Source: Kiritimatiellia bacterium (GTDB taxonomy: Bacteria; Verrucomicrobiota; Kiritimatiellia; RFP12; JBMNHG01). From it: 64,000 nt of DNA. Of this stretch, positions 656-54,946 are shown piece after piece; within the stretch, counting starts at the first letter, position 1, and each line of letters begins with the position of its first letter. Position numbers and translations under genes: made by a program. The DNA is taken from positions 17,865-81,864 of the forward strand of contig JAZQOE010000124.1 of assembly GCA_045627705.1 (NCBI GenBank), read 5' to 3'. Under the pieces are notes generated by a model. That model did not search any database, was not told where the DNA came from, and was given only the letters and a program-made list of their open reading frames with translations.

Positions 656-2413
656 TCACGGCAGACACCGCGCGAAGTTGTCCTGAACACGATGGCGCGC
701 GGCTGCCTCGGTCTTCACGTCATCGACAGTGCGCGTCGCGGGGTCGTAGTTTACGCCCACGTAGATGACGCGCCGTCCGTCCGCCGCGTAGGCGTCGGCG
801 TAGCGCTTTTCACGGCACTGCGCGAGCGCGGCATCCGCTGACTTCCCGTACTTGAACTCGATGACGTATATCGCCTTCTCCGTATTCACCACCGAATCGG
901 GACGGCCGAGCGAATGCTGCTCTTCGGAGACGGCCTCGGCGCGGGCGAATACCATGTACGCGAGGAAGTAGCGCTTGATCTCCTTCTCGTCCTTGTCCAG
1001 CCACTCGTGTGGGATCTTCGAAAACGCCGTGCGCAGGAGCGCCGTGAACTTGGCACCCGTCTCGTCGGCGAAGAGTTCAGCAGCCGTTTCTTCCGCCGTT
1101 ATCGAGAAGTCATCCAGCTCGAAGTCTCTGCCGAAGACCGATGAGACATAGCCGCGGTAGAGCGACGAACGCACCTCCTCGTTCGGAATACGCAGGACGA
1201 CGGTCTCGCCGTCGATGCGGCGGTCGATCGTGAGATACCCGCCATGGTAGAGCAGCGCCACTGTCGGTGCTTCCAAGGCATCCGGCGCGTCAAGGGAGAC
1301 CAACTTGAATTTCTTCGCGAAATCCACTGGCGCGGCATTTCTCGCCTTCAGCGCATCGAAGACCAGCGTCGATCCGGCTGTCGCCTCCCAGTAGTTGCCG
1401 AACGCCTGGTTTGAGAGGGCGTTGCCGAGCGACACGGGGTTGACGACCTTGACAGGTCTGCGGGGCGAGAACTGGTAGCCGTCGTACCAGCGCAGCAGTT
1501 CGGAAAAGGCTTCGCCATACGAGATGTTGTTCGCGTCCGCGCACGCCTGGATGTGCCCGTGGAAATATTTCTCCACTTCCTCGTGCGTGTAGCCGAGGAG
1601 ATCCGCCGCGCGCGCGTCGAGCGAGAGGTCCTTTGGATTGTTGAACGCCGAGAAGATCGAGGTCTTCGCGAACTTCGTGACGCCCGTCACCATCAGAAAC
1701 CGCATGTCGCCGCAGTGCGCCTTCGCCTGGATGTAGAAGTCGTGCAGTGCCTTGCGCACGTCGGGAAGTTCCGCGCGTTCCTTTTCCGAGTCGAGGAACT
1801 GCGCGATCGGAGCGTCGTATTCGTCGATCAGCAGCACATACCTGCCGTTCTCGGACTTGTTCGCAACGGCTTCCAGCAAATTCTTGAAATTCGCGCCGCT
1901 GGTCTTCGCCGGGTCAAAGGGAACGCCATGTTCCCGGCAATGCCCTTCGACGAAATTCAGGAGATTAGACTTGAAGTCCGCAAAGTTGGCGGCCGATGTC
2001 TGGGACATGTCGAGATGTATTACAGGATAGACTTCCTTCTCCCAGTCCCAGTCGGTCCGCTCGATGGCCAGTCCCTGGAACAGCTCGCGCCGCCCCTGGA
2101 AAAGCGCCTTCAGAGTCGAGATCATCAGCGACTTCCCGAACCGCCGCGGCCGAGGCAGGTAGTAGATGCTTCCGGCATCAGGGCGAACCAACTCGTAAAG
2201 TTGCGCCGTCTTGTCAACATAGACATATCCGCGCCCGATGATCGAAGGGAAATCGTAGATGCTCGTGTCGATCGTTTTCATTCCATCGTATCGTACCACA
2301 ATCCATACTCGGTACACCACCTTTGTGTCTGTAGGATGCGTTCTGATGTCGGCCTGCAGAGTCGCGATGGTGTAGAATCCATCGGAAATCTCCAATTTCG
2401 CCGGTTCAACCAT
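656..2413 (-). CDS. AAA-ATPase-like domain protein with C-terminal PD-(D/E)XK nuclease-like (DUF1703/PDDEXK_9-type) domain. The true start is probably the internal Met near 2284 (MKTIDTSIYDF...).
   Basis: N-terminal region YVYVDKTAQLYEL...YYLPRPRRFGKSLMISTLKALF matches the 'predicted AAA-ATPase' family signature (YVDKT...RPRRFGKS). The C-terminus IYVIEFKYGKSADAALAQCREKRYADAY...VIYVGVNYD matches the associated PD-(D/E)XK domain. Confidence 0.7.
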   Translation of the reverse strand: MVEPAKLEISDGFYTIATLQADIRTHPTDTKVVYRVWIVVRYDGMKTIDTSIYDFPSIIGRGYVYVDKTAQLYELVRPDAGSIYYLPRPRRFGKSLMISTLKALFQGRRELFQGLAIERTDWDWEKEVYPVIHLDMSQTSAANFADFKSNLLNFVEGHCREHGVPFDPAKTSGANFKNLLEAVANKSENGRYVLLIDEYDAPIAQFLDSEKERAELPDVRKALHDFYIQAKAHCGDMRFLMVTGVTKFAKTSIFSAFNNPKDLSLDARAADLLGYTHEEVEKYFHGHIQACADANNISYGEAFSELLRWYDGYQFSPRRPVKVVNPVSLGNALSNQAFGNYWEATAGSTLVFDALKARNAAPVDFAKKFKLVSLDAPDALEAPTVALLYHGGYLTIDRRIDGETVVLRIPNEEVRSSLYRGYVSSVFGRDFELDDFSITAEETAAELFADETGAKFTALLRTAFSKIPHEWLDKDEKEIKRYFLAYMVFARAEAVSEEQHSLGRPDSVVNTEKAIYVIEFKYGKSADAALAQCREKRYADAYAADGRRVIYVGVNYDPATRTVDDVKTEAAARHRVQDNFARCLP

Positions 2414-2502
2414 GCCATATTGACCCTGTCCGTATGTGCCGCCATGCGTCGAAATGCCGCCACCGTGAACCCATCGGCTTTGGAGTACGTTAAATATGGT
2501 GT

Positions 2503-3396
2503 ATGGTCAGTCGAGAGACAAATGGGTTTACGCTGGTTGAGCTGGCGCTGGTGGTGCTCCTTGTGGGCATTCTGGCCTCGCTTGCCGTCGTGCGCCTGGG
2601 TAATACCACTGCCATCGCAAAACGGCGCGCCGCGGAGGCGGATGTCTGTTCGTTGCGCAATGCGATGGTTGGATCGGATGCCATGGCGGGCTACCTCGGC
2701 GACATGGGCGCAATCCCCGGTTTTTCGCCCGCGTTGCTCCGCGTGGGCAATCTCCTCTGTGCAACGAATCTCTTCGGGGTGGGGGATGTGCGGCTTGATG
2801 CCGACGACGGATTTGCTCGGCAGGGAATCGCATCTGCATCCGCTTTCACTTCCTGGGATGACGAAGCGAATCGCGGGTGGCGCGGCCCATATCTTTCCGT
2901 CTCGGCGGGAATAACAACCCCCGAAGGCGAATCCCATCTTTTCCCGCATGCCGATGACATCCGCTTCGATGGCGATTCAACTTTTGCGGCGCGCCGTTTT
3001 TTCCCTTCCGTTTCGCATCTTTCGCTCCCCGCTGAATATCGCAATCCCGATGGCGGCAAGCGTTCCGTCTATGGCTTCGCCACGGAGCCTGCGATCGGCG
3101 ATCCATGGGGCAATCCATACGTTCTCCAGATCCCGCCACCACAGGCGTTCGCTTCGCCGGACACCGTTTCGGCGCGGACGCGCTTCCGCTATGCGCGTTT
3201 CGTCTCGGCCGGTCCAGACGGCATACTTTCTACGCCGTGCTTTCCCGTTGATGCCGCGACATGGGGTGAAGAAACCCGCCGTGTTTCGCGCTTGGCCGGA
3301 CGCGACGCCCGCGGCGCATCCGCCCGCGGTGACGACATCGTGCTTTTCATAAACCGTTCGGATGTCTTTGAGGAAGACGAGTCGATCGAGCCATGA
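2503..3396 (+). CDS. type II secretion / type IV pilus pseudopilin, GspG-like
   Basis: Prepilin leader MVSRETNG|FTLVELALVVLLVGILASLAV, with the class III signal peptide G|F cleavage site. C-terminal DPWGNPY and GPDG motifs are typical of GspG major pseudopilins. Confidence 0.75.
   Translation: MVSRETNGFTLVELALVVLLVGILASLAVVRLGNTTAIAKRRAAEADVCSLRNAMVGSDAMAGYLGDMGAIPGFSPALLRVGNLLCATNLFGVGDVRLDADDGFARQGIASASAFTSWDDEANRGWRGPYLSVSAGITTPEGESHLFPHADDIRFDGDSTFAARRFFPSVSHLSLPAEYRNPDGGKRSVYGFATEPAIGDPWGNPYVLQIPPPQAFASPDTVSARTRFRYARFVSAGPDGILSTPCFPVDAATWGEETRRVSRLAGRDARGASARGDDIVLFINRSDVFEEDESIEP
2619..2632. repeat. copy of the dispersed palindromic motif core (aaaacggcgcgccg) inside pseudopilin gene 1
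   Basis: gcaaaacggcgcgccgcgg. Encodes AKRRAA. Confidence 0.4.
2986..3002. repeat. copy of the dispersed palindromic motif (gcggcgcgccgtttttt) inside pseudopilin gene 1
   Basis: cttttgcggcgcgccgttttttcc. Encodes FAARRFFP. Confidence 0.5.
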
Positions 3397-4442
3397 AACA
3401 TCCCTTCCATTCCATTGCATCGCGCTTTCGCGACCTCCCGCCGCGCCACGCATTCACACTTATCGAACTAGTGGTCGTACTCGTCCTGATTGGCGTGCTG
3501 ACGCATCTGCTTGTCGGCGAAATGTCGCGCTTTCAAACCCGTCGTCTCAATGAAGCGGCGGACACCCAACTCGAATCCCTCCGCCTCGCAATCGCTGGTT
3601 CTCCCGATTACCGCGATGCGACTGGCGCGCGCATCCGCGAAGGCTTTGTCGCCGATATGGGCCGTGCCCCGCGCGCTCTTCGCATCTATCCCGATGATGC
3701 TGGTTCCCCGCTTTCCCTCCGCGAACTTTGGGAGCGCCCTTCCGATGTCGCGGAATTCGCGCTCCGCCCTGCGACAGCCGAGAATCTTCTGCCGTCATGC
3801 GCTTCTCTCGCCGACCAGGATGTCTGCGTTCCTTGTGGCTGGCGCGGTCCCTACATCCAGCTCCCGATTTCGCAGACGCGTCTTCGCGATCCATGGGGCA
3901 ATACGATCGAAACGCCTGACACTGCTTCCTCGCCGCGCATTTTCGGCGCCGATACGAACGCCGTCGTTTCCGAGGGCGAAGAGATCGTGTGGGTGCGACA
4001 CCTCGGCGCCGATGGACGCGACGATTCGCTTGCTGGAGCGCACGGCGCGTTCCATGCGCTCGATCGTGATCGTTGGCTCCGTGTCGATGCCGATTCGGAT
4101 GCCAGGCCCGCAACGAGTCTTCTCGTGACGACCCGAGTGCTTGATTCGACGGGTTGCGCCGATGCGATGTCTATCGGTCGAAGCGTAACGGGCGTCCTTT
4201 ACTCCCCATGTGGCAGCGCGATTACCGCGGCCGTCGAAACCGCGACACTCCCTGCGGGGGCGAGCGTCAACCTCCGTTTCAAGGGCCTCACTCCTGGTAC
4301 GCGCATTCTCCGTTTGCGCCTTGGCGGACTTGCGCCAGAAGACCCGATGATTGTGGGCGTCGTCCATTCACTTCGGTTGCAGCCTGGCGACAACTCATTC
4401 GTTGAAACCTTCCGCACGGACTCGCAGGTGGTGGCGCCATGA
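3393..4442 (+). CDS. prepilin-type N-terminal cleavage/methylation domain protein (second pseudopilin, GspG/GspH-like)
   Basis: AFTLIELVVVLVLIGVL N-terminal helix. DPWGNT and LGADGRDD motifs. The start overlaps the upstream stop (ATGA), indicating translational coupling. Confidence 0.65.
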   Translation: MKHPFHSIASRFRDLPPRHAFTLIELVVVLVLIGVLTHLLVGEMSRFQTRRLNEAADTQLESLRLAIAGSPDYRDATGARIREGFVADMGRAPRALRIYPDDAGSPLSLRELWERPSDVAEFALRPATAENLLPSCASLADQDVCVPCGWRGPYIQLPISQTRLRDPWGNTIETPDTASSPRIFGADTNAVVSEGEEIVWVRHLGADGRDDSLAGAHGAFHALDRDRWLRVDADSDARPATSLLVTTRVLDSTGCADAMSIGRSVTGVLYSPCGSAITAAVETATLPAGASVNLRFKGLTPGTRILRLRLGGLAPEDPMIVGVVHSLRLQPGDNSFVETFRTDSQVVAP

Positions 4443-5530
4443 AGAACAATGCGTTCGATATCGTCGTGGCGATTACGCCCGATGGCGTTTCCCGCCTTGA
4501 TCTGCCAGATGGCAAGTTGCTTTCTTCGAGCCAACGCGACGGAAGCCCCTCCGAGGCCCTTGCCATTGCGTTCGGCTTGGGGCGTGTCAAACGCAATGCC
4601 CGCGTGCTTGTGCTTTCGACGGACTTCTTTTCGCAGACGGTTCGTCTTCCACGTCGCCAGATCGCTGGCCTTTCCGCTGCGGAAATCGAGACGGCGCTAG
4701 CGTATGAGATCGAGCCTTTCTCGAACATCCCGCGCGATCAGGGGGTCGCCGCATTCCAGGCGTTGACTGATGAAGGCGCCGACACCTCATCCTGGCGCAC
4801 GGTGCAAATCGCCCGCGCGGACTGGGACTCGCTTGATGCCGCCGCCATTGCCGCAGACGCAAGGCTCGCGGGATGTGCGCCTTTGGCTTCGCTCCCCGCT
4901 TCGGACGAAGCGATTGCCGGCGCTTTGCTGCAATACGCTTCCGATGCACTTTCATCTCCGCCGCGCATCCCTGTCGCCGCCGTGGCATCCACCACCGCAA
5001 AATCGCAGGTAATGCCCAAGGTAGCCGCGACGCTTTACCTGCTAGTCGCAATCGCTTGCCTTCTCCACTACGTTTTTGTCCCGCGCATGCGTGACAACTT
5101 GCGTACGGATGTCGAAGAGCGCGAAGCCCTCGCGGCGGCAAACGCCACTATCGCGAATGAAATCCGCGCCATCGAAGCACGCTCCGAGCAACTCAAAAAG
5201 AACCTTGCGGCGCGCAACGATGCCGCGCTTTCCCTCTCCGCGTACCGCAAGGCATGGAGTTCGCTCCTCCATGATCTTGTTACGGCCTGTGGCGATGATG
5301 TGATGGTGCGGTCGATTTCCGGTGATGTCCTTTCTGGTGGCGTCATGGTCGAGGCGATTGCGACCGATGTCGATGCCCCCGCATCGTTCATGGTGCGACT
5401 TGCCGATTTGACCGCGAAAAATGGTTGGATGTTGACTCCACGCGATGTGCGCAACGAAACGAAGGGACCATCGTCCTTCCGCTTCTCATTGGAATTTTCC
5501 GGGAAGCCCGATAACGGAGGTGCGAAATGA
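4439..5530 (+). CDS. GspL / PilM-PilN-like inner-membrane assembly protein (cytoplasmic domain, one TM, coiled-coil periplasmic part)
   Basis: Architecture only: an N-terminal ~200 aa soluble domain, a TM helix VAATLYLLVAIACLLHYVFV, then a coiled-coil. Position between the pseudopilins and the GspM-like gene. The start overlaps the upstream stop. Confidence 0.4.
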   Translation: MKNNAFDIVVAITPDGVSRLDLPDGKLLSSSQRDGSPSEALAIAFGLGRVKRNARVLVLSTDFFSQTVRLPRRQIAGLSAAEIETALAYEIEPFSNIPRDQGVAAFQALTDEGADTSSWRTVQIARADWDSLDAAAIAADARLAGCAPLASLPASDEAIAGALLQYASDALSSPPRIPVAAVASTTAKSQVMPKVAATLYLLVAIACLLHYVFVPRMRDNLRTDVEEREALAAANATIANEIRAIEARSEQLKKNLAARNDAALSLSAYRKAWSSLLHDLVTACGDDVMVRSISGDVLSGGVMVEAIATDVDAPASFMVRLADLTAKNGWMLTPRDVRNETKGPSSFRFSLEFSGKPDNGGAK

Positions 5531-6117
5531 ATAGCGGCCTCAAGATTTCAAATCGCGACCGCATCTTCATGATGTTTGCGCCGATGGCCTTTCTCGCAGT
5601 CGGATACTGGTTCTTCATCGCAAGGCCAATTTCGTCTGAAATCGCTTTGCTCAAGCATCGGGACGCATCGTTGGGTACGGCAGAAGAAATCGCTGCCGTA
5701 CGTCCTGGACTAGAGAAGAAGCTCCAGGAAATTTCACAGTCGTTTTCTGCCGCAAAGGCGATGCAGGATGAAATCATCGCTTCTTCACAACCGGCATACG
5801 GCGGTGAACCGGCTGAGATGATGCGAATGCTTCGCGAACTTTTCCACAGGCATGGCGGCAATGTCGCGACGAGTTCGCTGCGTGACGATGAACTGCAATT
5901 CGGACAAACCGCCCCAGTATATGTGGACTTGCTGAAGAGCTTCTCGTCCGCTGCCCCGCACCACTGGATTTTCGAGGTCGAGTCCGACTATGCCGGCATG
6001 GCGGCTGCACTTGACGAGCTTGCCAATAGCCACCAATGCGTGATTGATTCGCTTTCGATGCGGCCCGACGACACTGGCGCGTCATCTTGCGTCTGGAGAC
6101 TTTCGCTATGGATGTGA
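5527..6117 (+). CDS. GspM / PilO-like bitopic membrane protein
   Basis: 196 aa with one N-terminal TM (IFMMFAPMAFLAVGYWFFI), a coiled-coil and a periplasmic C-terminus. Operon context. The start overlaps the upstream stop. Confidence 0.35.
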   Translation: MNSGLKISNRDRIFMMFAPMAFLAVGYWFFIARPISSEIALLKHRDASLGTAEEIAAVRPGLEKKLQEISQSFSAAKAMQDEIIASSQPAYGGEPAEMMRMLRELFHRHGGNVATSSLRDDELQFGQTAPVYVDLLKSFSSAAPHHWIFEVESDYAGMAAALDELANSHQCVIDSLSMRPDDTGASSCVWRLSLWM

Positions 6118-7253
6118 CCTCCAACACCGCGACTTCTTTCCTCGATTCGATTTTCGCCCTTTGCGAAGCTTCGGGCGCTTCGGATATCCATCTCGCTGCC
6201 GACCAGGTTCCGCGGATGCGAATACAGGGCGATCTCTCGCCCGTAAAAAACGGCGCGCCGCTTTCCGCCGCCGAGTGCGAGTCGATTGCGCTTGGCCTGG
6301 TTGCGACGACTCTTTCGGCGGACGCATCAGATCCGCAGACCGCTGCGCGTGCGGCACTGCGTGCGAGTTGCGCGGTCGATGGCGCGACGACATCGCCAGC
6401 GGGACACCGCTATCGCTTCAACGTCTTCCTCGAGAATTCCCATCCCGCGATCGCCTTGCGCCGTCTCGATGATCGTTTCCTTTCGCTTTCCGAGCTCGGG
6501 CTTCCGCTGGGGCTTGCTGATTTCTGTGTTCAGCCGTACGGGCTCGTGATTGTCACGGGGCCCACTGGTTCGGGCAAGAGCACCACGCTTGCGACGCTTA
6601 TCGACCAAATCAATCGCGAGCGTCATGGCCATATCGTTACCATCGAGGATCCAATCGAATATCTCCACAAGTCGCAGTCGTGCCTTGTGCGACAGCGTCA
6701 GATCGGACGTGACGCGAAGAGCTTCAACGCCGCGCTTGTCGAATCGTTGCGACAGGATCCAGACGTGATTCTTGTTGGCGAAATCCGCGAGATCGACACC
6801 ATCCGCACTGCGATCACAGCGGCGGAAACTGGGCATCTCGTATTCACGACGCTGCATGCGGGCGATTGCGTTGGTGCCATCGAGCGCCTTGTCTCGGTTT
6901 TTCCTGCGGATGAGCAGGACGGCATACGGCGTCAGCTCGCGATGGTCTTACGCGGTGTTTTCGCGCAGCATCTTCTGCCTCCTGCCGTGCCAGGCACACG
7001 GCGCGTCGCATGCGGCGAGCTGCTTCTCGTGAATACCGCGATTGCGAATCTGATCGCGACGGGACGCGATGCGCAGATTTATTCGGCGATTGAAAGCGGG
7101 CGTAAATTCGGCATGCGAACTCTCGACCAGGAGTTGGCGTTCCTTTGCTCAAGCGGAAAGATTACGGAGCAGACCGCTCTTGCGATGTCGCGGAATCCCG
7201 ATGTCCTTCGCAGTTGGATCCGCTCGGATGCGAATCGCGAGGATGCGAGATGA
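6108..7253 (+). CDS. pilT: type IV pilus retraction (twitching motility) ATPase PilT
   Basis: Walker A GPTGSGKSTTLA, Asp box TIEDPIEY, His box TTLHAGDCVGAIERL, and the PilT-specific AIANLIATGRDAQIYSAIESGRKFGMRTLDQEL (AIRNLIRE-type) motif. Start chosen at MDVTSNTATSFLDSIF. The listed ORF starts at 6087. Confidence 0.85.
   Translation: MDVTSNTATSFLDSIFALCEASGASDIHLAADQVPRMRIQGDLSPVKNGAPLSAAECESIALGLVATTLSADASDPQTAARAALRASCAVDGATTSPAGHRYRFNVFLENSHPAIALRRLDDRFLSLSELGLPLGLADFCVQPYGLVIVTGPTGSGKSTTLATLIDQINRERHGHIVTIEDPIEYLHKSQSCLVRQRQIGRDAKSFNAALVESLRQDPDVILVGEIREIDTIRTAITAAETGHLVFTTLHAGDCVGAIERLVSVFPADEQDGIRRQLAMVLRGVFAQHLLPPAVPGTRRVACGELLLVNTAIANLIATGRDAQIYSAIESGRKFGMRTLDQELAFLCSSGKITEQTALAMSRNPDVLRSWIRSDANREDAR
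6245..6261. repeat. copy of the dispersed palindromic motif (aaaaaacggcgcgccgc) inside pilT
   Basis: Exact 15-mer aaaaacggcgcgccg. Encodes VKNGAPLS. Confidence 0.5.
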
Positions 7254-8737
7254 GTCAGCAGTCATCAAAAATCGACCTCGATTCCATCCGCATCGACCCT
7301 GCATGGGCCATGCGGATTCCATCGGCGTTGGCGCTGCGTAGGCTTGCGCTTCCGCTTTGCGTCGTGGATGGATCGCTTGCCGTCGCGATGGCGGATCCTC
7401 GCGATACCGCGACAGCCGATGCCATTTCACGTGCGGCGGGCATGCCGGTTACGCCATGCGAGGCGGATTCCGCGCAACTTCGCGCTTGGCTTCTTCGCGT
7501 CTATGGCGATTCGCGTTCGTCACAGTCCGTCACCGCGGGCGCGCAATCTGCGCAGTCTGGCGATCCCATTGCGATTGTCGATGGTCTCCTTCGCGCGGCG
7601 GCATTGCGCCATGCGTCCGACATCCATCTCGATCCAATGCGCGACGAGGCCCGTGTGCGCCTCCGCGTGGACGGCCAGCTCGAGGATTGCACCCGCATTC
7701 CGCCGGACGTAGTTCCCGGCGTGTGTTCACGGATCAAAGTCATGAGCGGACTCGACATCGCGGAAAAGCGCGCGCCGCAGGATGGCGCTTTCACATGGCG
7801 TATGCAGGGTTCAGAGCTGCCGCCGTTCGATGTGCGTGTCGCAACGCTTCCAGTACGTTTCGGCGAACGCATCACAATGCGGCTTCTCGAGACTGGTGGC
7901 GAGCGCCTTTCGATCGACGATCTTGGAATGGGCGAAACCCATCGCGCGATTTTCGAAAGGCTGCTTGAAAGTCCGCATGGACTGGTGCTGCTTACTGGGC
8001 CGACAGGGTCTGGCAAGACAACGACACTCTATGCGGCGATCCAGGCGCTTCTCCGGCGCGCGCCGCTAAACATCCTCACGGTCGAGGATCCTGTCGAATA
8101 CGAAATCGATGGCATCGCGCAGGTCGAGGTCGATTCGAGCGACAAGGTGAATTTCACGAAGGCGCTCAGGAGTTTGCTGCGTCACGATCCCGATGTCGTG
8201 ATGATTGGCGAAATCCGCGATCCGGAATCACTCGATACAGCTGTCAAGGCCGCGTTGACAGGCCATCTTGTTCTCTCCACGCTCCATGCCAACGATGCGG
8301 TGGGCGCTGTGACACGACTGTCGGACATGCATCTCGAACCGCATCTGGCCGCCGCGACGCTGCGCCTGAGCGTCGCCCAACGGCTTGTGCGCCGGCTCTG
8401 TCCGCATTGCCGTGTCGCGCGCGAACTCGATCTGGCTGGCGCGACTTCGCTCGGGCAACCCGCGCTTGCCGGGCGAACCGTATGCGAGCCACGCGGGTGC
8501 CTGTCATGCGCCGGCCGCGGTTATGCCGGCCGTATCGGACTATTCGAGATGTTTTCGCCTGATGCGGAAATCGCCGCGATGATTTCGCGGGGTGTGCCAG
8601 GCGTTGAACTAGCCTCCGCATTGCGCGAGCGCAGCTTCGCTTCCCTTGCCGACGACGCAAGGGGCAAACTGTTCGCGGGCGACGCATCTCTCGCTGATAT
8701 CCTTCGTGTCACGTTCATTTCCGATACTACAATATAA
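7250..8737 (+). CDS. gspE: GspE/PilB-family secretion/pilus assembly ATPase
   Basis: T2SSE_N-type N-domain. Walker A LLTGPTGSGKTTTL. TVEDPVEYEI, LSTLHANDAVGAVTRL, and a tetracysteine motif CPHC...CLSCAGRGYAGRIGLFE. ATGA overlap with the pilT stop. The listed ORF (7145) has a spurious 5' extension. Confidence 0.85.
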   Translation: MSQQSSKIDLDSIRIDPAWAMRIPSALALRRLALPLCVVDGSLAVAMADPRDTATADAISRAAGMPVTPCEADSAQLRAWLLRVYGDSRSSQSVTAGAQSAQSGDPIAIVDGLLRAAALRHASDIHLDPMRDEARVRLRVDGQLEDCTRIPPDVVPGVCSRIKVMSGLDIAEKRAPQDGAFTWRMQGSELPPFDVRVATLPVRFGERITMRLLETGGERLSIDDLGMGETHRAIFERLLESPHGLVLLTGPTGSGKTTTLYAAIQALLRRAPLNILTVEDPVEYEIDGIAQVEVDSSDKVNFTKALRSLLRHDPDVVMIGEIRDPESLDTAVKAALTGHLVLSTLHANDAVGAVTRLSDMHLEPHLAAATLRLSVAQRLVRRLCPHCRVARELDLAGATSLGQPALAGRTVCEPRGCLSCAGRGYAGRIGLFEMFSPDAEIAAMISRGVPGVELASALRERSFASLADDARGKLFAGDASLADILRVTFISDTTI

Positions 8738-8757
8738 TTTTTCCGAGAGAACCCATG

Positions 8758-8780
8758 CTTAAGGGGACAGGCCTTTTAAG
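8758..8780. repeat. degenerate copy (19/23) of the 23-bp REP-like palindrome, in reverse orientation, between convergent gspE and truB
   Basis: cttaaggggacaggccttttaag compared with the reverse complement of the consensus, cttaaagggacagactatttaag. The flanking 'atgcttaa...tttaagag' extensions also match other copies. Confidence 0.45.
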
Positions 8781-8836
8781 AGTGTGTTGCGGCGCCACGC
8801 TTGCCGCCGACAAACATGCGTATGGGATGGCGGCGC

Positions 8837-9556
8837 TTATGCGTATTGCTGGCATGGGATGACATGCGCGGCGAGTTCGTCGGGCGTCATCCCCAGCGCT
8901 TCCTTGAGCGGAACGGCGTGTGAAAGGTCGAGGCTGCCGGACCTGATCCTGCGCAGTGAAGACATGCACGCGCCGCAGCCGAGTTTCAGCCCGACATCGT
9001 GGCAGAGCGTGCGGATGTATGTCCCCTTCGAGCATTTGACCTCGAACGAAACGCTCGGCAGCGCGAATTCTGTCGCCTTGAAACTGTAAACGTGGATGAA
9101 GCGAGGGTCGCGCTGCACGGTCTCCCCCTGATGCGCGAGCTTGTAGAGCGGCACGCCGTTCACCTTGATAGCCGAGACCATGGGAGGCGTCTGCATTTGG
9201 TCGCCGTGCATTGAGTCCATCGCCTGTGAAACCTCTTCGGCCGTTATCGACGATGTGTCTTTTTCCACAACCGTATCGCCATCGATGTCCTGGGTCGTTG
9301 TCTCGCGTCCGAGGAGCATCGTGCCGGTGTACATCTTGTCGCCGCCCATGACGCGGTCGGAAAGCGAAGTTCCCTTTCCGAGCAGGATCACGAGCAGGCC
9401 CGTGGCATTTGGGTCGAGCGTCCCGCCATGTCCGACCTTGCGCTGGCGGAGATGGCGCTTGATCACGGCGACGACATCGTGCGAAGTGAATTCGACAGGC
9501 TTGTCGATGAGGAGAAGTCCGTCGATGTCGGGGAGGGGAAGATATTTCAGGCCCAT
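8837..9556 (-). CDS. truB: tRNA pseudouridine(55) synthase TruB
   Basis: MGLKYLPLPDIDGLLLIDKP...GHGGTLDP...PPMVSAIKVNG...FEVKCSKGTYIRTL are canonical TruB motifs. The listed 509-aa ORF is a spurious 5' extension into the neighbouring gene. Confidence 0.85.
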   Translation of the reverse strand: MGLKYLPLPDIDGLLLIDKPVEFTSHDVVAVIKRHLRQRKVGHGGTLDPNATGLLVILLGKGTSLSDRVMGGDKMYTGTMLLGRETTTQDIDGDTVVEKDTSSITAEEVSQAMDSMHGDQMQTPPMVSAIKVNGVPLYKLAHQGETVQRDPRFIHVYSFKATEFALPSVSFEVKCSKGTYIRTLCHDVGLKLGCGACMSSLRRIRSGSLDLSHAVPLKEALGMTPDELAAHVIPCQQYA

Positions 9557-11252: not shown

Positions 11253-14200
11253 TTATCGGATGAAGATAAGCGTGCCGGGATTGACGGTTTCGCTCTCGTA
11301 GCAGCCGAGGTCGACGATGTCTTCCCTGGCGCCGGCGCGGCCCTTCCAGATACGGGGCGAGCCATCCAGGTCGATCGTCGAGAGCACGTTTTCGTTGTTG
11401 CCCGCGTCGATGGCGAGGCTGTTCGAGCGCAAGTGCGCGTCGAAGGCGGGATCGCTCCAGAGGACCGACGTGTTCTTGAGACCGGGATTCATGAGCATTA
11501 CGTTCGCGCTGCTGTTGGTCTCGTAGCCGCGGCCTTCCTCGATGTTCCAGAGAATGGTGTCATAGAGGTACAGGTGCGTGCCGGGCTCGTGAATCATGGC
11601 GCCGTCGGGCGGGATGAACGAGAGGATGCCGTCGCAGATGATCGAATTGTAGAATCGCGGGAAGATGTAGCGGCCGTTGTAGCCGCCGGTGTTCCCGACG
11701 AAGGTGCAATTGCGGATGTGCGGGTAGGAGGCATACCCGTGGAAGACGCCGGCGGGGGTGTAGTTGCCCGCGAAGAGGCAGTCGTCGAAGGTGCAGGTCG
11801 GCGGATTCTTGTTGTCGTTGTTGAAGTAGTTGATTCCGAAGACCGCCCCTTCGCGGCCGCCGAGGAACTTGCAGCGGCGGACATTCAGCGAGCCACCGTT
11901 GCGTCCGAAGAGGGCCGAGGCGCGATAGGCGTCGCTGAGCTGGTTGTTGGACTGGGTGACGGCGTTGTTGCGGAATGTGCAGTCTTCGAGGGTCACGTAG
12001 ATGTTCACTTCCATGCCGCCGAAGACGGTCGCGTTGTCGCTGTCGTTGTCCGCAAAGAGACAGTTCTTCGCGGTGAACACCTGCTGGTTGTTCAGCACCT
12101 GCTTTTCGAGGTAGATGGCGGAGTGACGGACCATGTTCGTGAAGACGCAGTCGATTGCGGTCACATCGGCGTTGTCGCGCTGGGCGATGCCGCCGACGGC
12201 CGCCTTGTTGTTTACGGACTGCGTGAAGACCGAGTTGGTCACCACTGCCGTGGCCGATACGACATGGAGGGCCATCGAGCGGGTGTCGCGGAAGGAGAGG
12301 TTCGCGATGCGGACCGCTTCGGTTCCGGTTACTGACACCAGTGTATCGGCCGTATTGTCGCCGGTGAGGATGCAGCCTTCCGCCGCGGAGGTCGTGTCGC
12401 CATCGGCTGAGCAACCGATGAGGTCGATGCCCGCGGCATTGAGCGGGAAGGATTCCTGTGCGGTCGTGTAGTTGCCGGGGAGGAGACGGACTTCATCGCC
12501 GACCGCGAGATTCGAGATCGCGAAGGTCGCGGTGCGGAGCGGATCGTCCAGGGCGCCAGTCGCGGCGTCGGAGCCATCCTTCGGATCGACGTACAGGTAG
12601 CCGGGGTGTGCGATGACGGTGAGGATGATGGTGTCGGTGCCGGTTTCCTTGAAGATGAAGCCGCCGCCGATCGTCACCTCGATCGTGTTGATGCCGTTGC
12701 CGCCGGTGACGGTGAGGCTGCCGGACGAGGCATGCTCGTCAACATCGATGTAGGCATTGCCGTTCCATGCGGCCGAGCTGGTGCCGGTCTCGAACGGGCC
12801 GTTCACGACGATCGGCAGGCGGGTCGTGGCGAGGATGCCCTGCTCGAACAGGGAAACCGTGAACCCGCGGGTCGCGCCCTGGCGGAGGAAGAACCTGGTG
12901 TCGCCACCGATTGTCACGAGGTTCGACGACGGGAAGACGTCGATCGCGAACGGCGCGATGCCTTCGGAGGTCCCGGACTCGGAGAGGACCAGGCGAGTGA
13001 TGGTCTCGGCGCAATCCGAGGCGACAGTGACAGGCAGATCGACTGGGCCGGCGCCATCGGGGATCGTCAGCGTCTCTGGGCCGGAGAGACCTTCGCCGTA
13101 TTCGATAGCGACGGTGACGGGTCCGCTGGCGGCGGGGGAGACGGAGACCTTGGTCGTGTAGGTGCTGCCCTTGAACACGTAGAGGGCGCCAGGCACTGGA
13201 ATCTGGAAGGCCGGCACGGGCGAAGCGTGGAAGGTCGATTCGTAGCAGCCGAGGTCGGCGGTTTCGATGGCGTCGCCGTCGTTGTCGGCGATGCGGGCGT
13301 TGCCCGCGAGGTCAATCTTGGTGCTCGCCACGGAGTTTACGCCGGCGTCAATCGCGGGCGAATACGGGCGGGGACGCGCGTCGAAGGCGGGATCATCCCA
13401 GGATACATCGCAGTTTTCAATCCACGGATTGTCCGTCGATACTCCATAGCTCGCCTGTTCGTTGTATCCGTTGCCGAGATCGGTGTTCCAGAGGATGACG
13501 TTCTGGAGGCGGAGCCTCGTGGCATCGTCGTTCATGTCGGACGAAGAGTGCGTGAGTGCGCCAACGTCGCAGAGGATGCAGTTGCGCAGGTAGGTGTCGC
13601 AGACATATCCGGTGAAACCGCCGCCGCAGCGGATGAACGTGCAGTTGTCGATGAGCCAGTTGGTGGTGTAGCCATTGATGATGTGGTGCGTGACGGGGTT
13701 GTCCACGAAGAGCGAATCCTGGACGCTGCAGGAAGTGCTGGAGCTCGTGCCGAAGAGGGCGCGGCCGGTATTGCCGAAGAAGCGGCAGCGGGCGAGATGC
13801 GCGGAACTCCAATTTCCCCATGCGCCCCAGATGTAGATGCAGGCGGCGGCCTGGCCATCGTGCAGCTTCTGGCTCAAGGCGCTGTTCGTGGCGAAGAGCG
13901 TGTCGTCCACCCTGATGTCGAAGCGCGAACCCGAAGGGGCCGCGATCGCGCCGTAGGAATTGGAGTTGCCGTTGAAGGCGCAGTTCGTCGCGTTGAATGT
14001 CGCGTTGTTGTTCTCGCTGCACCAGACGGTGCCGATTCGGCGGATGGAGAGGAACTCGCATCCGGCGGCATTCGCGATGCCGTTGTTGCTGATCTGGATT
14101 GCGCCGGCGGCGTTGTAGTTTTCGACCGACTGCGTGAAGAGGATGTTTTCGAGACTGGCTTCGGCGGCGCTGACATCGACCAACGGGCCTGTGGTGTCGC

Positions 14201-16814: not shown

Positions 16815-16928
16815 AAAATTCGCTTTGGGTTTGTCAAACGAACATCGGAAGTGCTATCATGACAAACTCTTTGAGATCAGCCGGCGTGCTTCTCGCCGGC
16901 CACTGAACCGCCTATCGAGGAAATAACC

Positions 16929-19193
16929 ATGGACGACACTGCCGCGACACCGAATGCAACCACGCAAGACCTTGAATCCGCATTTCTGGAGGCAATCGCC
17001 AAGACCCCGATACCGGTCGATGAATGCTTCGCGCAACTGAAGGCGATCGCCGCCCAGAAGCCAGATGTCGCGGGAAAATGCATCATCCTCCTTCGCGACC
17101 AGTTGATCGAGTCCGGTCTTGCCGAACCTCTCGCCGAGCTTTACACGATGTGGTCCTGCTCGGCTGGCGACCGTCCGGCCGCGAAGGATTGCCTTGCGAA
17201 TCTCAAGAAAGTCACGCGCGACCGCCTCTGGAACGCCATCGCGGATTCCTGCGCCTTCGGTGCGCCGAAGGTGGATGTCTCGGAGTCGATGCGCCGCTTC
17301 AATCTTCTCCGGGCGTGCAAGCCGGGCGTGACCTGCCTCGACAAGACATGGGGCGTCGGCATAATCAGGAAGATGGACGACTTCTACAAGCGCATGACCA
17401 TCGACTTCGCTTCGAAGAAGAACAACGTTATGCCCTTTGCGATCGCGGCCGAGGCGATTTCGCTTCCCTCGCCGTCGCACATTCTCGTGCAAGTCCACAA
17501 CGACGCCGCCGGCTATGCCGCGAAGGTCAAGGATCATCCCGGGCAGGTCGTTCGCGACGCACTTGCCAGCATGGGGCAGATGACCCTCGCCCGCCTCGAG
17601 ATTTTCCTCACCGAAAACAAGATCGTCTCCAACTGGAAGTCCTTCTGGGACAAGGCCCGCAAGGAACTCAAGGACGACCCGTGCGTCGAGATTCCCGCCA
17701 AGCGCAACGATCCGCTGGTGATTCACGAGGTCGCCCCGCAGATTGGCGATGGCGCATGGTTCCAGGCGCTCGGCGCGACGCTCGACATCGAAAAGATCCT
17801 CGAGCAGATTCTCAAGCTGGAATCCGAGACCGCAGGCAAGCAGCTTTCCGGCTTCGAGAAGGAAGTCGTCGATGGCCGTCTCGCCTTCGCGCTCAAGGGC
17901 GCGCGAAACGCGGACCATGCGCTTTACGCCCGCCTGGCGATTGTCGCCGGCCGGCTTGGCCTCGAGAATCCGTCCGTCGCCGAAACGCGCGCCCAGCTTT
18001 GGGCGGACGACAACTACATCGCCGCCGGCGAAAAGCTTTCCTCCCGCGATGTCGCGCATCTCGTGGCGTTCCTTCTCGCCGATGGCGACGAAGCGGCATG
18101 CAAGCTTCTCGGCTCGATCGAGAAGATGAACTATGCGATGGCGTCCGAAGTGCTCAACCAGCTCAAGGAGCGCGGTGCCGACGATCCCGCATACTGCAGG
18201 CTCCGCGACACCGTCTGGAGCATCCTCTCGCGCTCCAATCCCCCTGCGATCATCCTGGTATGGGTGCTCCGCAACCTTTGGAGCCTCCGCGACAAGAAGA
18301 CCCTTGAAACCGTCAACGGCTGGAGGCTTCCGTCGAACTATGTGCTGCTTGGCCATGCGCTTGCGGTCTCCGAGAATCCGAATCTCACGGGCGAACTGCT
18401 CCACATGCGCAACACGATCGACAACCTTCTCTCGCCAGAGGTGAAGAAGGATGCACCCGCCGAATCGAAGAGCGCGGTCCGCGACTGGTTCAGGACCATC
18501 TTCGTGTCGCTCGCCGAAAACGAGCAGGAGGCGATTTTCGCGCATGTCCGCGGGTCGGATGCGTGGGAACCGGCGATGCAGCGCGGCATGATCGGCCGCA
18601 TGATCAAGGCGAACGAGAATCTCAAGGCGAACAAGGTCGCGAGCGAGGATGCCGCGGCAAGCCAGGCTTTGGCCGGACGCTGGACATCGCTTCGTTCCCG
18701 CAAGGAGCGCGAGATGGCGCTCGACCATCTCGTCAAGGTCGAGATACCCGAAAACGTCAAGGCGATCGAATACGGCCGTTCCCTCGGCGACTTGCGCGAG
18801 AACTTCGAGTACCAGTCCGCGAAGGACACGGAGCGCGTGCTCCACGCCCGCCGCGAAAGCTGGGAAGAGGATCTCCGCAATGTCCGCGGCACAGATTTCG
18901 CGGAAGTCGTTCCGGAGGTCGTCGGCATGGGCGCCCGCGTCACGCTCCGCTTCGAGGATGGTTCGACGCGCGTCTGCAGCGTCCTCGGCGAGTGGGACCA
19001 CGACGAAGCCCTCGCGATCTACTCCAACCTCAGCGGTCTCGCAAAGAGCATCGAGGGCAGGAAGGCCGGCGACGCGGCCGTCATTCCGACCGAGGATGGC
19101 GAGAAGGCCGTGACGATCGTGGCCGTCGAGCCGCTCGACGCGACGGTGCGCGCATGGATTGTTTCCGAGCCCGCCGCGACGGCCGCGGAATAA
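16929..19193 (+). CDS. large (754 aa) protein with a C-terminal GreA/GreB-like transcript cleavage factor domain fused to a ~600-aa N-terminal domain of unknown function
   Basis: C-terminal SLGDLRENFEYQSAKDTERVLHARRESWEEDL (GreA GDLsENAEY.AAKe motif) followed by ARVTLRFEDGSTRVCSVLGEWDHDEALAIYSNLSGLAKSIEGRKAGDAAVIPTEDGEKAVTIVAVEP, an FKBP-like Gre C-domain. Confidence 0.55.
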   Translation: MDDTAATPNATTQDLESAFLEAIAKTPIPVDECFAQLKAIAAQKPDVAGKCIILLRDQLIESGLAEPLAELYTMWSCSAGDRPAAKDCLANLKKVTRDRLWNAIADSCAFGAPKVDVSESMRRFNLLRACKPGVTCLDKTWGVGIIRKMDDFYKRMTIDFASKKNNVMPFAIAAEAISLPSPSHILVQVHNDAAGYAAKVKDHPGQVVRDALASMGQMTLARLEIFLTENKIVSNWKSFWDKARKELKDDPCVEIPAKRNDPLVIHEVAPQIGDGAWFQALGATLDIEKILEQILKLESETAGKQLSGFEKEVVDGRLAFALKGARNADHALYARLAIVAGRLGLENPSVAETRAQLWADDNYIAAGEKLSSRDVAHLVAFLLADGDEAACKLLGSIEKMNYAMASEVLNQLKERGADDPAYCRLRDTVWSILSRSNPPAIILVWVLRNLWSLRDKKTLETVNGWRLPSNYVLLGHALAVSENPNLTGELLHMRNTIDNLLSPEVKKDAPAESKSAVRDWFRTIFVSLAENEQEAIFAHVRGSDAWEPAMQRGMIGRMIKANENLKANKVASEDAAASQALAGRWTSLRSRKEREMALDHLVKVEIPENVKAIEYGRSLGDLRENFEYQSAKDTERVLHARRESWEEDLRNVRGTDFAEVVPEVVGMGARVTLRFEDGSTRVCSVLGEWDHDEALAIYSNLSGLAKSIEGRKAGDAAVIPTEDGEKAVTIVAVEPLDATVRAWIVSEPAATAAE

Positions 19194-19236
19194 CCCATTT
19201 CCTTTCACAGCTTCCGTATTCCCGCGTGTACCTTGA

Positions 19237-20163: not shown

Positions 20164-20165
20164 CC

Positions 20166-49812: not shown

Positions 49813-49908
49813 CCACCGCTTCGCTTGCGGCCCGCACGGTTGACGCCGGGCGGGCCGTTTCTATTTTGGCCCCGATTGACACAATCTCGCGCGAGGACTG
49901 TTCCTGAC

Positions 49909-50805
49909 ATGCCAGCGATCTATTGGATTTTCACCGTATTCATCACTCTTTTCGGTGCATGCATCGGCAGTTTCCTGAACGTTTGCATCTGGCGTATTCC
50001 ACTGGGGATGTCCATCGTGTCGCCGGGTTCGCACTGTCCGAAGTGCAATCATCCGATTCCATGGTGGCAGAATATCCCCATGTTCAGTTGGTTTGCCCTG
50101 CGCGGGAAATGCCACTATTGCAAGGCGCCGATTTCGTTCCGCTATCCGTTTGTCGAAACGTTGACCGCCGCCCTGTTTCTGCTTGTCTGGCTCAAATTCC
50201 TTGCGCCACTGGTAGATCCGCAGCTGCCTTATTCTTGGGCCACGAATGTACCTACCCATCCGCTTCTCGGTACGACGCCGTTCAATGATATCCGCGGACT
50301 GCCCATCTATCTGCTGATGGTTGTCGGACTCGTCTTCGGATCGTTCGTCGATATCGACCACCTGATTTTGCCAGACCGCGTAACAATCGGCGGCATAATC
50401 CTCGGCCTTGTCTCCTCCCCGCTTGTTCCGGAACTCCAGTGCGCGGCGACATGGCAGCAAGCGCTCATCCGTTCCGCAATCGGCTTCGCCGTCGGCTTTG
50501 GAGGACTGTGGCTCGTATCATTTCTTGGCTCGCTAGCCTTCCGAAAAGAGGCGATGGGCTTCGGCGATGTCAAGCTCATGGGCGCGATCGGCGCGCTTTG
50601 CGGCTGGCAATCCGTTGTCTTCACGCTGATCGCCGGTTCGTTCCTTGGTTCGTTCGTCGGCATCGCGCTCATGGCCGCGAAAAAGCGCGACCTGCAGGGA
50701 CGCATTCCATTCGGCCCATTCCTCGCCATCGGCGCAATCGCCTGGATTTGCTGGGGACAAACCTTGTTCAACCTCTACATGCGCCTTCTGTCCCCGCGCG
50801 TGTAG
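49909..50805 (+). CDS. pilD: prepilin peptidase (A24 family; PilD/GspO)
   Basis: Zn-binding CPKCNHPIPWWQNIPMFSWFALRGKCHYCKAPIS. Catalytic GFGDVKLMGAIGA. Polytopic membrane protein. Start chosen at MPAIYWIF. Confidence 0.8.
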   Translation: MPAIYWIFTVFITLFGACIGSFLNVCIWRIPLGMSIVSPGSHCPKCNHPIPWWQNIPMFSWFALRGKCHYCKAPISFRYPFVETLTAALFLLVWLKFLAPLVDPQLPYSWATNVPTHPLLGTTPFNDIRGLPIYLLMVVGLVFGSFVDIDHLILPDRVTIGGIILGLVSSPLVPELQCAATWQQALIRSAIGFAVGFGGLWLVSFLGSLAFRKEAMGFGDVKLMGAIGALCGWQSVVFTLIAGSFLGSFVGIALMAAKKRDLQGRIPFGPFLAIGAIAWICWGQTLFNLYMRLLSPRV

Positions 50806-54907: not shown

Positions 54908-54946
54908 CGTTTTCAGGCCATAGTGACGATTTCAAGGAGGCAAAGC

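What the first reader, a model, noticed from the sequence alone, without database searches (positions are those of the whole stretch)
2503..8737. Compact translationally coupled pilus/T2SS-like operon containing both a retraction ATPase (PilT) and an assembly ATPase (GspE/PilB), but no secretin or platform gene
Six consecutive genes: pseudopilin, pseudopilin, GspL/PilMN-like, GspM/PilO-like, pilT and gspE/pilB. They are joined by overlapping stop/start codons (ATGA at 3393, 4439, 5527 and 7250, and an overlap at 6108-6117). Classical type II secretion systems lack a PilT retraction ATPase. Finding pilT immediately upstream of the GspE-type ATPase inside a pseudopilin/GspLM operon indicates a retractile type IV filament system of hybrid T2SS/T4aP composition. 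A GspF/PilC platform and a secretin are not present in the 64 kb. They must be encoded elsewhere or are absent. The prepilin peptidase pilD lies separately at 49909..50805. This machinery may be the exporter or anchor for the giant beta-helix proteins, or a DNA-uptake pilus. See the dispersed-motif finding.
Basis: partly seen in the sequence, partly recalled or inferred. Interest (0 to 1): 0.65.

Follow-up and report, generated by a model that had tools for sequence, protein, structure and literature searches.

The report
Pilus-motor operon missing platform and pore
This is a real six-gene operon for the subunits, scaffold and two motors (build and retract) of a type IV filament machine that mixes secretion-system-like parts with a pilus retraction motor. 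The same cluster recurs across Kiritimatiellia, Lentisphaerae and Verrucomicrobiota, and this lineage has moved the membrane platform and outer-membrane pore genes elsewhere.

Summary
Six + strand genes (2503-8737) overlap at every junction and all six match NCBI-called proteins exactly. They encode two GspG-like pseudopilins, a GspL-type protein, a GspM/PilO-like protein, a true PilT-family ATPase and a GspE/PilB assembly ATPase. The 64 kb holds no platform or secretin gene, by Pfam scan and by tblastn.

The operon is not a one-off. The same order P1-P2-L-M-T-E occurs in about 45 fetched loci, including Kiritimatiellia and Lentisphaerae MAGs and a Verrucomicrobiota chromosome. In most contigs that read past E, a GspF-like platform follows, and usually a GspD-like secretin after it. 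The window, its two closest relatives and two rumen contigs stop after E.

The shortened operon is under purifying selection (dN/dS 0.08-0.27). One contig whose only window-matching housekeeping gene, a GHMP kinase, is 79% identical carries an orphan platform gene of this clade among housekeeping genes. F is therefore probably encoded elsewhere.

Every component leans towards T2SS models but falls below equivalog cut-offs. PilT is above its cut-off, with AIRNLIRE replaced by A[IV]ANLIATG.

Verdict: a new variant of a known kind. Its function (pilus or secretion) is unresolved, and the link to the giant proteins is unsupported.

The parts
2503..3396 (+). P1: GspG-like pseudopilin, 297 aa. The prepilin site is MVSRETNG|FTLVE.
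   Evidence: It matches N_methyl / IV_pilin_GFxxxE. Nine of 13 family members hit Pfam T2SSG (best E 2.2e-4; the window copy only 0.29). The motifs RGWRGPY, DPWGNPYVLQ, VSAGPDG and RGDDIVLF are conserved. dN/dS is 0.15 against L001.
3393..4442 (+). P2: a second GspG-like pseudopilin, 349 aa. It has a 20-aa leader, Ala at position -1 (PPRHA|FTLIE) and a C-terminal extension of about 130 aa.
   Evidence: It scores 25.5 bits on N_methyl, above the 21.2 cut-off. The motifs GWRGPY, DPWGN and HLGADG are conserved. It is a paralogue of P1 by hhalign (E 8.9e-20 over the N-terminal 70 aa). dN/dS is 0.10.
4439..5530 (+). L: a GspL-type bitopic alignment protein, 363 aa. It has a cytoplasmic truncated actin-like domain (aa 1-171), a TM segment plus long helix (about 191-284) and a periplasmic ferredoxin-like domain (288-353).
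5527..6117 (+). M: a GspM/PilO-like bitopic protein, 196 aa, with an N-terminal TM segment, a coiled coil and an alpha-beta-beta x2 domain.
   Evidence: Twenty-two of 32 family members hit Pfam T2SSM (best 4.8e-6), 6 hit T2SSM_b and none hit PilO. The AF2 model has pLDDT 69.6. Foldseek matches Myxococcus PilO (E 1.3e-5), P. aeruginosa PilO and the PulM C-terminal domain (TMt 0.70-0.72).
6108..7253 (+). T: a PilT-family retraction ATPase, 381 aa. The Walker A, Asp, Walker B and His boxes are intact. AIRNLIRE is replaced by AIANLIATG.
   Evidence: It scores 369.7 bits on TIGR01420, above the 319.1 cut-off. Its best solved relatives are all PilT (Geobacter 5zfq 284.5 bits), against 212 bits for PilU and about 100 for GspE/PilB. 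The motif is family-wide in 18 loci. dN/dS is 0.075.
7250..8737 (+). E: a GspE/PilB-type assembly ATPase, 495 aa, with an N-terminal MshEN/N1 domain, a T2SSE core and a CxxC...CxxC zinc motif.
   Evidence: Pfam gives T2SSE E 4.8e-112 and MshEN 5.5e-15. It scores GspE 455.9 bits (cut-off 630) and PilB 427.7 bits (cut-off 676). It is equidistant from solved Myxococcus PilB (318.8 bits) and Vibrio GspE (316.5 bits). dN/dS is 0.084.
49825..50805 (+). PilD/GspO prepilin peptidase, encoded separately directly after recA. It is the presumed processing enzyme for P1 and P2.
   Evidence: Pfam gives A24_N_bact E 5.9e-37 and Peptidase_A24 E 8.1e-20. The functional link to the operon is inferred.

Best explanation
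The six genes are the pilin, alignment and motor module of a type IV filament (T4F) machine. This type is conserved in Kiritimatiellia, Lentisphaerae and Verrucomicrobiota. Its complete gene cluster is P1-P2-L-M-T-E-F-D, often with a third pilin. In this sub-lineage the cluster has been cut after E, and the platform F (and presumably the secretin D) is encoded at another locus.

Proposed mechanism. The separately encoded PilD cleaves and methylates P1 (after Gly8) and P2 (after Ala20). L and M form the inner-membrane alignment complex through their periplasmic ferredoxin-like domains. The cytoplasmic actin-like domain of L docks the N-terminal domain of the E hexamer. E, acting through the platform F, lifts pilins out of the membrane into a growing helical fibre. 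The PilT-family hexamer T then replaces E on the platform and drives disassembly, which makes the fibre retractile.

I commit to a dynamic, retractable pilus-like fibre built from T2SS-like parts as the most likely output. What is shown: gene identities, folds, conservation, purifying selection, the usual adjacency of F and D in relatives (read here as ancestral), and an orphan F on a contig that appears closely related. What is inferred: the protein contacts, the use of a remote F and D, retraction itself and the biological role.
For: Identities and folds of all six products come. The order P1-P2-L-M-T-E is conserved in every locus fetched. F directly follows E in L005, L009, L010, L011, L013, L016, L017, L020, L021, L023, L039, L043 and L046. 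D follows in L005, L009, L010, L011, L016, L017, L039 and L043. These loci include a Verrucomicrobiota chromosome, a Lentisphaerae MAG and Kiritimatiellia MAGs. The window version is intact and under purifying selection (dN/dS 0.08-0.27 against L001), with conserved overlaps. An orphan F of the same clade, 54-56% identical to cluster-linked Fs, sits between a Mur ligase gene and a 2-hydroxyacid dehydrogenase gene in L047. The GHMP kinase of L047 is 78.7% identical over its full length to window 54956-55984. The T ATPase has all catalytic boxes and aligns end to end with solved PilT. PilD is present in the window.
Against: The L047 link rests on one shared housekeeping gene. Only two pilins are present, and no obvious major pilin. 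Relatives often have a third pilin. The AIRNLIRE motif is held to mark PilT and is predicted to sit at the PilT-PilC interface (10.1101/2025.10.30.685630; PMC6762196). Here it has lost both arginines and the glutamate, so canonical retraction function is not guaranteed. All component HMM scores lean towards T2SS, which fits secretion as well as a pilus.
Confidence: 0.6

Rival explanations
1. It is a type II secretion system in function. P1 and P2 form a short periplasmic endopilus that pushes folded enzymes through a GspD-like secretin, and the integrated PilT actively resets the piston. This would be a T2SS that kept the retraction motor other T2SS lost.
Against: All Gsp scores are far below the equivalog cut-offs. 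No GspC and no GspH-I-J-K minor pseudopilins were found. The pseudopilins are 2-2.5 times the size of GspG. Classical T2SS, as usually described, lack a dedicated PilT, and none turned up in the literature searched here. The so-called T2SS of Bacteroidetes shows that HMM-level T2SS resemblance can mislead.
Confidence: 0.3
2. The shortened cassette is an accessory paralogous module. The genome also holds a complete P1-P2-L-M-T-E-F-D cluster, and this F/D-less copy plugs alternative pilins and motors into that shared platform and secretin.
For: Other Kiritimatiellia MAGs carry complete clusters whose T and E are only 63-64% identical to the window's. That divergence is compatible with either orthology or old paralogy. 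F/D-less versions arose at least twice: in the window clade, and in the rumen loci L028 and L037.
Against: No genome was shown to hold two copies. The orphan F in L047 fits simple relocation of the single F better.
Confidence: 0.15
3. The operon is a decaying remnant left after loss of F and D, and it no longer builds anything.
For: There is no platform or secretin in 64 kb. F is indispensable in all studied T4F systems (established knowledge).
Against: All six ORFs are intact, and the overlaps are preserved in three diverged genomes. dN/dS is 0.08-0.27 with dS above 1. The catalytic motifs are intact.
Confidence: 0.03

Closest known systems
Classical type II secretion system (Gsp/Pul/Eps/Xcp)
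   Same: It has GspG-like pseudopilins with the W-GPY, DPWGNPY and GxDG hallmarks. It has a single fused bitopic GspL-type protein with an actin-like cytoplasmic domain and a ferredoxin-like periplasmic domain. It has a GspM-like partner and a GspE-like ATPase of about 490 aa with an N1-type domain and a zinc motif. In relatives, F and D score best on the GspF and GspD models. The prepilin peptidase is encoded apart.
   Different: It contains a PilT-family ATPase inside the operon. It lacks GspC and the GspH-I-J-K tip pseudopilins. Its pseudopilins are 297-349 aa, against about 140 aa. The gene order is G-G'-L-M-T-E-F-D rather than C-D-E-F-G-...-L-M. Every score is below the equivalog cut-off. 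In this window F and D are absent from the locus.
Type IVa pilus machine (Pseudomonas, Myxococcus, Thermus)
   Same: It pairs a PilB-like with a PilT-like ATPase. It has PilM-like, PilN-like and PilO-like elements (Myxococcus PilN profile hit E 4.3e-12; PilM and PilO fold hits). Multi-locus organisation with pilD elsewhere is normal for T4aP. PilB-PilT-PilC adjacency is known in Myxococcus (own knowledge).
   Different: PilM is truncated to about 170 aa and fused to PilN. No PilP was found. The pilins are GspG-like rather than T4a pilins. T precedes E. The AIRNLIRE motif of PilT is A[IV]ANLIATG. The secretin and platform in relatives score better as GspD and GspF.
Bacteroidetes (Cytophaga-type) 'T2SS' and chlamydial 'generic' T2SS, as discussed by Denise et al. 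2019 (PMC6668835)
   Same: These are T4F systems that do not fit the T2SS/T4aP dichotomy and are classed as generic or misplaced by standard models. The chlamydial system is likewise from the PVC group.
   Different: The chlamydial system lacks GspL/M and minor pilins, whereas this one has L and M plus PilT. Its relationship to the Bacteroidetes system was not tested here.
Akkermansia muciniphila Amuc_1098-1102 pilus-like cluster
   Different: The secretins of related loci score only 46-54 bits on the Amuc_1098 family model, whose cut-off is 750. To my knowledge that cluster has no motor ATPases. It is not the same family.

Membership tests
Type IV filament superfamily | Pilins with a class III signal peptide (G/A|F-x-x-x-E plus a hydrophobic helix) | tested here: met
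   P1 has TNG|FTLVE and P2 has RHA|FTLIE. TIGR02532 scores are above the cut-off, and Pfam N_methyl passes its cut-off for P2.
Type IV filament superfamily | GspE/PilB-family hexameric assembly ATPase | tested here: met
   Pfam T2SSE E 4.8e-112. It matches solved PilB and GspE at about 317 bits.
Type IV filament superfamily | GspF/PilC polytopic platform protein | tested here: not met
   It is absent from the 64-kb window. It is present next to E in 13 related loci. It occurs as an orphan gene on one contig that appears closely related.
Type IV filament superfamily | Prepilin peptidase | tested here: met
   Window 49825-50805 carries A24_N_bact + Peptidase_A24.
Type II secretion system | GspE and GspG reach the NCBIfam equivalog cut-offs | tested here: not met
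   GspE scores 455.9 against a cut-off of 630.25. GspG scores 33 and 27 against 88.85.
Type II secretion system | GspL (fused cytoplasmic actin-like domain, TM and periplasmic domain) and GspM | tested here: inconclusive
   The architecture and folds match. T2SSM hits 22 of 32 family members. However, there is no Pfam T2SSL hit in 92 members, and the window M scores 14.7 bits against a cut-off of 27.8.
Type II secretion system | GspC and the minor pseudopilins GspH, I, J and K | tested here: not met
   None is present in the operon or in complete clusters of relatives. There are only 2-4 GspG-like pilins.
Type II secretion system | No dedicated PilT retraction ATPase | tested here: not met
   A PilT-family gene lies inside the operon in every locus.
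Type IVa pilus | PilT/PilU-family retraction ATPase | tested here: met
   TIGR01420 scores 369.7 bits, above the 319.1 cut-off. PilT structures are the best PDB hits.
Type IVa pilus | AIRNLIRE motif of PilT | tested here: not met
   It aligns to AIANLIATG. Five of eight positions are kept and R, R and E are lost. The change is family-wide.
Type IVa pilus | PilB equivalog, and separate PilM, PilN, PilO and PilP | tested here: not met
   PilB scores 427.7 against a cut-off of 675.65. A half-PilM is fused to PilN. No PilP was found.
Type IVa pilus | PilQ-type secretin | not testable with these tools
   There is no secretin in the window. In relatives D scores GspD 172 against PilQ 118, both below their cut-offs.

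The most novel reading that the evidence does not exclude
This could be a PVC-wide lineage of type II secretion-like machines that never lost the PilT retraction motor. That would make it a natural secretion piston with a powered reverse stroke, and a living intermediate between type IVa pili and T2SS. It has its own PilT subfamily (A[IV]ANLIATG), possibly co-adapted to a GspF-like platform. It may also be the machine that handles the very large families of prepilin-like proteins in PVC bacteria.
Probability: 0.25. Interest if true: 0.8.

Novelty: new variant of a known kind. Interest (0 to 1): 0.5.

Why it matters
T2SS are thought to derive from type IVa pili with loss of PilT (PMC6668835). 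How the T2SS endopilus is disassembled without a retraction motor is an old open question. A conserved, compact cluster combining GspG/L/M/E/F/D-like parts with an integral PilT gives a concrete system in which to test it. Possible tests are to delete T or E, image by cryo-ET, and compare secretome with piliation in a cultivable Kiritimatiellales or Verrucomicrobiota strain. The cluster also supplies a distinct PilT subfamily for probing what the AIRNLIRE motif does at the platform interface. For annotation, it shows that ORF3 and ORF4 are the L and M components of this machine: ORF3 belongs to a 505-cluster family and ORF4 to a family of at least 32 clusters, and both go almost unrecognised by Pfam. 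It also shows that an operon without F and D is a split system rather than a defective one. If it is simply the local form of a type IVa pilus, the result is a useful but ordinary annotation.

Tried and rejected
- Exact look-ups of window proteins to recover the rest of the source contig failed. The window's own genome could therefore not be searched for F and D.
- P0005 was tried as a handle on the L002 MAG but came from a 2-kb metagenome contig.
- The 92-sequence ORF3 alignment was too divergent for pattern scanning. A 22-sequence subset worked.
- The ORF4 family profile against PDB sequences gave nothing meaningful. hhalign of ORF4 against ORF3 matched only the TM and coiled-coil region at 62% probability.
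- The promoter and terminator scan of 2200-9000 found no more sites than shuffled sequence.
- Literature searches for Kiritimatiellota, PVC pili or T2SS with PilT found no description of this cluster.
- Divergent secretin or platform candidates among the Pfam-less ORFs (29327-31249, 20749-22173, 51597-52646, 62159-63808) were read and rejected.
- A c-di-GMP-binding MshEN motif in E was looked for by eye and not seen. No claim is made.
- No ATPase phylogeny with reference sets was built, because reference sequences could not be imported. HMM and PDB bit-score comparisons were used instead.
Full report
**Observation.** The window carries six consecutive + strand ORFs: 2503-3396 (297 aa), 3393-4442 (349 aa), 4439-5530 (363 aa), 5527-6117 (196 aa), 6108-7253 (381 aa) and 7250-8737 (495 aa). 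Reading the junctions confirms ATGA stop/start overlaps at 3393, 4439, 5527 and 7250, and a 10-nt overlap at 6108-6117. Five of the products (P1, P2, L, T, E) were looked up and exist exactly, with these starts, as NCBI-called proteins on one 86,553-nt contig. The gene models therefore do not depend on my ORF calling.

**What the six proteins are: the pilins.** P1 and P2 carry the prepilin cleavage/methylation motif (Pfam N_methyl, TIGR02532). The sites are TNG|FTLVE for P1 and, unusually, RHA|FTLIE with Ala at -1 for P2. Their globular parts are not recognised directly. Alignments of orthologues show the GspG hallmarks (W-GPY, DPWGNPY, GxDG, DDI) separated by large insertions. Nine of 13 P1 orthologues hit Pfam T2SSG, with a best E of 2.2e-4.

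**What the six proteins are: ORF3 and ORF4.** ORF3 has no Pfam hit, but an exhaustive profile search finds a family of 505 cluster representatives.
- The family profile matches Myxococcus PilN at E 4.3e-12 over the TM and periplasmic half.
- A confident AF2 model (pLDDT 93.5) shows a 170-aa actin-like cytoplasmic domain, a TM segment plus long helix, and a ferredoxin-like periplasmic domain.

ORF3 is thus a fused half-PilM plus PilN, which is the GspL architecture.

For ORF4, 22 of 32 family members hit Pfam T2SSM and none hit PilO. Its moderate-confidence model (pLDDT 69.6) resembles PilO and the PulM C-terminal domain.

**What the six proteins are: the ATPases.** The fifth gene is a genuine PilT-family ATPase. 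It scores 369.7 bits on TIGR01420, above the 319.1 cut-off. All of its best solved relatives are PilT, at 284 bits against about 100 bits for GspE or PilB. The sixth gene is a GspE/PilB assembly ATPase. It is equidistant from solved PilB and GspE (318.8 and 316.5 bits) and falls below both equivalog cut-offs.

**Absence of platform and secretin.** Pfam scans of every plausible ORF in the 64 kb found no T2SSF or Secretin domain. The four ORFs without Pfam hits do not look like either protein. tblastn with F and D proteins from five related loci gave only noise at E<=1. A prepilin peptidase lies at 49825-50805, directly after recA. Only two prepilin-motif ORFs exist in the whole window.

**Relatives.** The six-gene cassette is a conserved unit.
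- Two close relatives carry the same six genes with near-identical lengths and the same overlaps. They are L001, a metagenome contig, and L002, a Kiritimatiellia MAG. Amino-acid identity to the window runs from 33-56% for M to 77-85% for E. Their flanks are unrelated housekeeping genes.
- Fetching more distant ORF3-family members and scanning metagenomes gave about 45 loci. tblastn shows the order P1-P2-L-M-T-E in all of them.
- Where the contig continues, a GspF-like gene follows E within a few bases in L005, L009, L010, L011, L013, L016, L017, L020, L021, L023, L039, L043 and L046.
- A secretin follows in L005, L009, L010, L011, L016, L017, L039 and L043, often with a third pilin nearby.
- These loci include a 7.8-Mb Verrucomicrobiota chromosome, where PGAP calls the proteins 'PilN domain-containing', 'GspE/PulE', 'T2SS F family' and 'GspD'. 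They also include a Lentisphaerae MAG and Kiritimatiellia MAGs.
- In these complete clusters F scores GspF 279 against PilC 261, and D scores GspD 172 against PilQ 118. Both are below their cut-offs.

**Why F and D are missing here.** The window, L001 and L002, and independently the rumen contigs L028 and L037, end after E.

The shortened operon is not decaying. Against L001, dN/dS is 0.15, 0.10, 0.27, 0.22, 0.075 and 0.084 for P1, P2, L, M, T and E. dS is 1.0-1.5, which is near saturation, so these ratios are approximate.

A search with the F protein of the nearest F-bearing relative found P0221. It is 54-56% identical to cluster-linked Fs. It sits alone between a Mur ligase gene and a 2-hydroxyacid dehydrogenase gene on an 80.6-kb contig (L047), with no T, E or D nearby. 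The GHMP kinase two genes upstream of it is 78.7% identical, over its full length, to the window's GHMP kinase at 54956-55984. That is about the same divergence as between the window and L001 or L002.

This is indirect evidence, resting on one shared marker gene. It is nonetheless positive evidence that lineages close to the window's keep the platform gene at a separate locus. I infer, but could not show, the same for the secretin.

**Mechanism.** From established knowledge of T4F machines I propose the following.
- PilD processes P1 and P2.
- L and M form the inner-membrane alignment complex, and L docks E.
- E polymerises pilins through the remote platform F.
- T exchanges with E and depolymerises the fibre.

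T keeps the Walker A, Asp, Walker B and His boxes. The AIRNLIRE motif is conserved in PilT, absent in PilU and predicted to lie at the PilT-PilC interface (PMC6762196; 10.1101/2025.10.30.685630). Here it reads AIANLIATG, and it reads A[IV]ANLIATG across 18 loci. That could reflect co-adaptation to a GspF-like platform, or a modified function.

**Classification and novelty.** Every component leans towards the T2SS model, yet none reaches an equivalog cut-off. GspC and GspH-K are absent, and a PilT is integral to the operon. The system is therefore neither a classical T2SS nor a classical T4aP. Denise et al. [quoted passage not shown] They infer loss of PilT in T2SS. They also note that non-proteobacterial systems (Chlamydiae, Bacteroidetes) are classed as generic or are misplaced. 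The non-chlamydial PVC phyla (Planctomycetes, Verrucomicrobia) are not mentioned in its main text. My literature searches found no description of this cluster. I rate it a new variant of a known kind.

**Function.** Whether it makes a retractile surface pilus (my leaning, because to my knowledge PilT-containing systems that have been characterised are pili) or a secretion endopilus with a powered reverse stroke cannot be decided from sequence.

Giant repeat proteins lie near the cluster in the window (11253-16742, minus strand), in L005 and in L037. They are absent near it in L001, L002, L039, L043 and L046. There is no conserved linkage. Such proteins appear frequent in the PVC contigs examined here.

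Noticed in passing
window 3393-3455 (P2 leader); also L001, L002, L011, L037: P2 has Ala instead of the near-universal Gly at position -1 of the prepilin cleavage site (PPRHA|FTLIE), after a 20-aa leader. Other members of the family have Gly there, and P1 of L005 also has Ala.
   Followed up: partly
window 6108-7253, motif at about aa 312-320; 18 related loci: The PilT-family ATPase of this cluster carries A[IV]ANLIATG where canonical PilT has AIRNLIRE. Both arginines and the glutamate are lost across the family.
   Followed up: partly
L028 3924-5027 and L037 3825-4925; by coverage also L016, L020, L021, L023: A rumen-metagenome clade of the same cluster has a short assembly ATPase of about 366 aa that lacks the N-terminal MshEN/N1 domain. 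In L028 and L037 no platform gene follows E.
   Followed up: partly
L039 11358-11902 (also L040-L042): A RelB/YafQ toxin-antitoxin pair is inserted on the opposite strand between the platform gene and the third pilin/secretin of an otherwise complete cluster.
   Followed up: no
L047 7650-11236 and window 54923-55987: An orphan platform gene of this clade sits after a GHMP kinase and a Mur ligase gene. The GHMP kinase is 78.7% identical to the window's. In the window, however, that kinase is followed by an ExbB/MotA gene, so local synteny differs.
   Followed up: partly
window 656-2413 (-); L046 13559-14510: A gene with AAA-ATPase_like (PF09820) + PDDEXK_9 domains lies directly upstream of the operon on the opposite strand. 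Another PF09820 gene lies near the cluster in a Kiritimatiellae MAG. This is probably coincidence.
   Followed up: no
window 11253-16742 (-), 16857-20531 (-), 31346-36370 (+), 36542-42877 (+): There are four giant ORFs of 1224-2111 aa. Three carry DUF1565, beta-helix or PKD domains and one has no Pfam hit. Giant repeat proteins also flank the cluster in L005 (PATR, 2564 aa) and L037 (2170 aa), but not in five other loci.
   Followed up: partly
window 52666-53679 (-): A 337-aa ORF has an IS200-like Y1 transposase domain covering only residues 24-87. The rest is unassigned.
   Followed up: no
window 29327-31249 (+): A 640-aa protein has a single N-terminal membrane segment and no Pfam hit at E<0.001. 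It was checked only to exclude a divergent secretin.
   Followed up: partly
[not shown]
   Followed up: no
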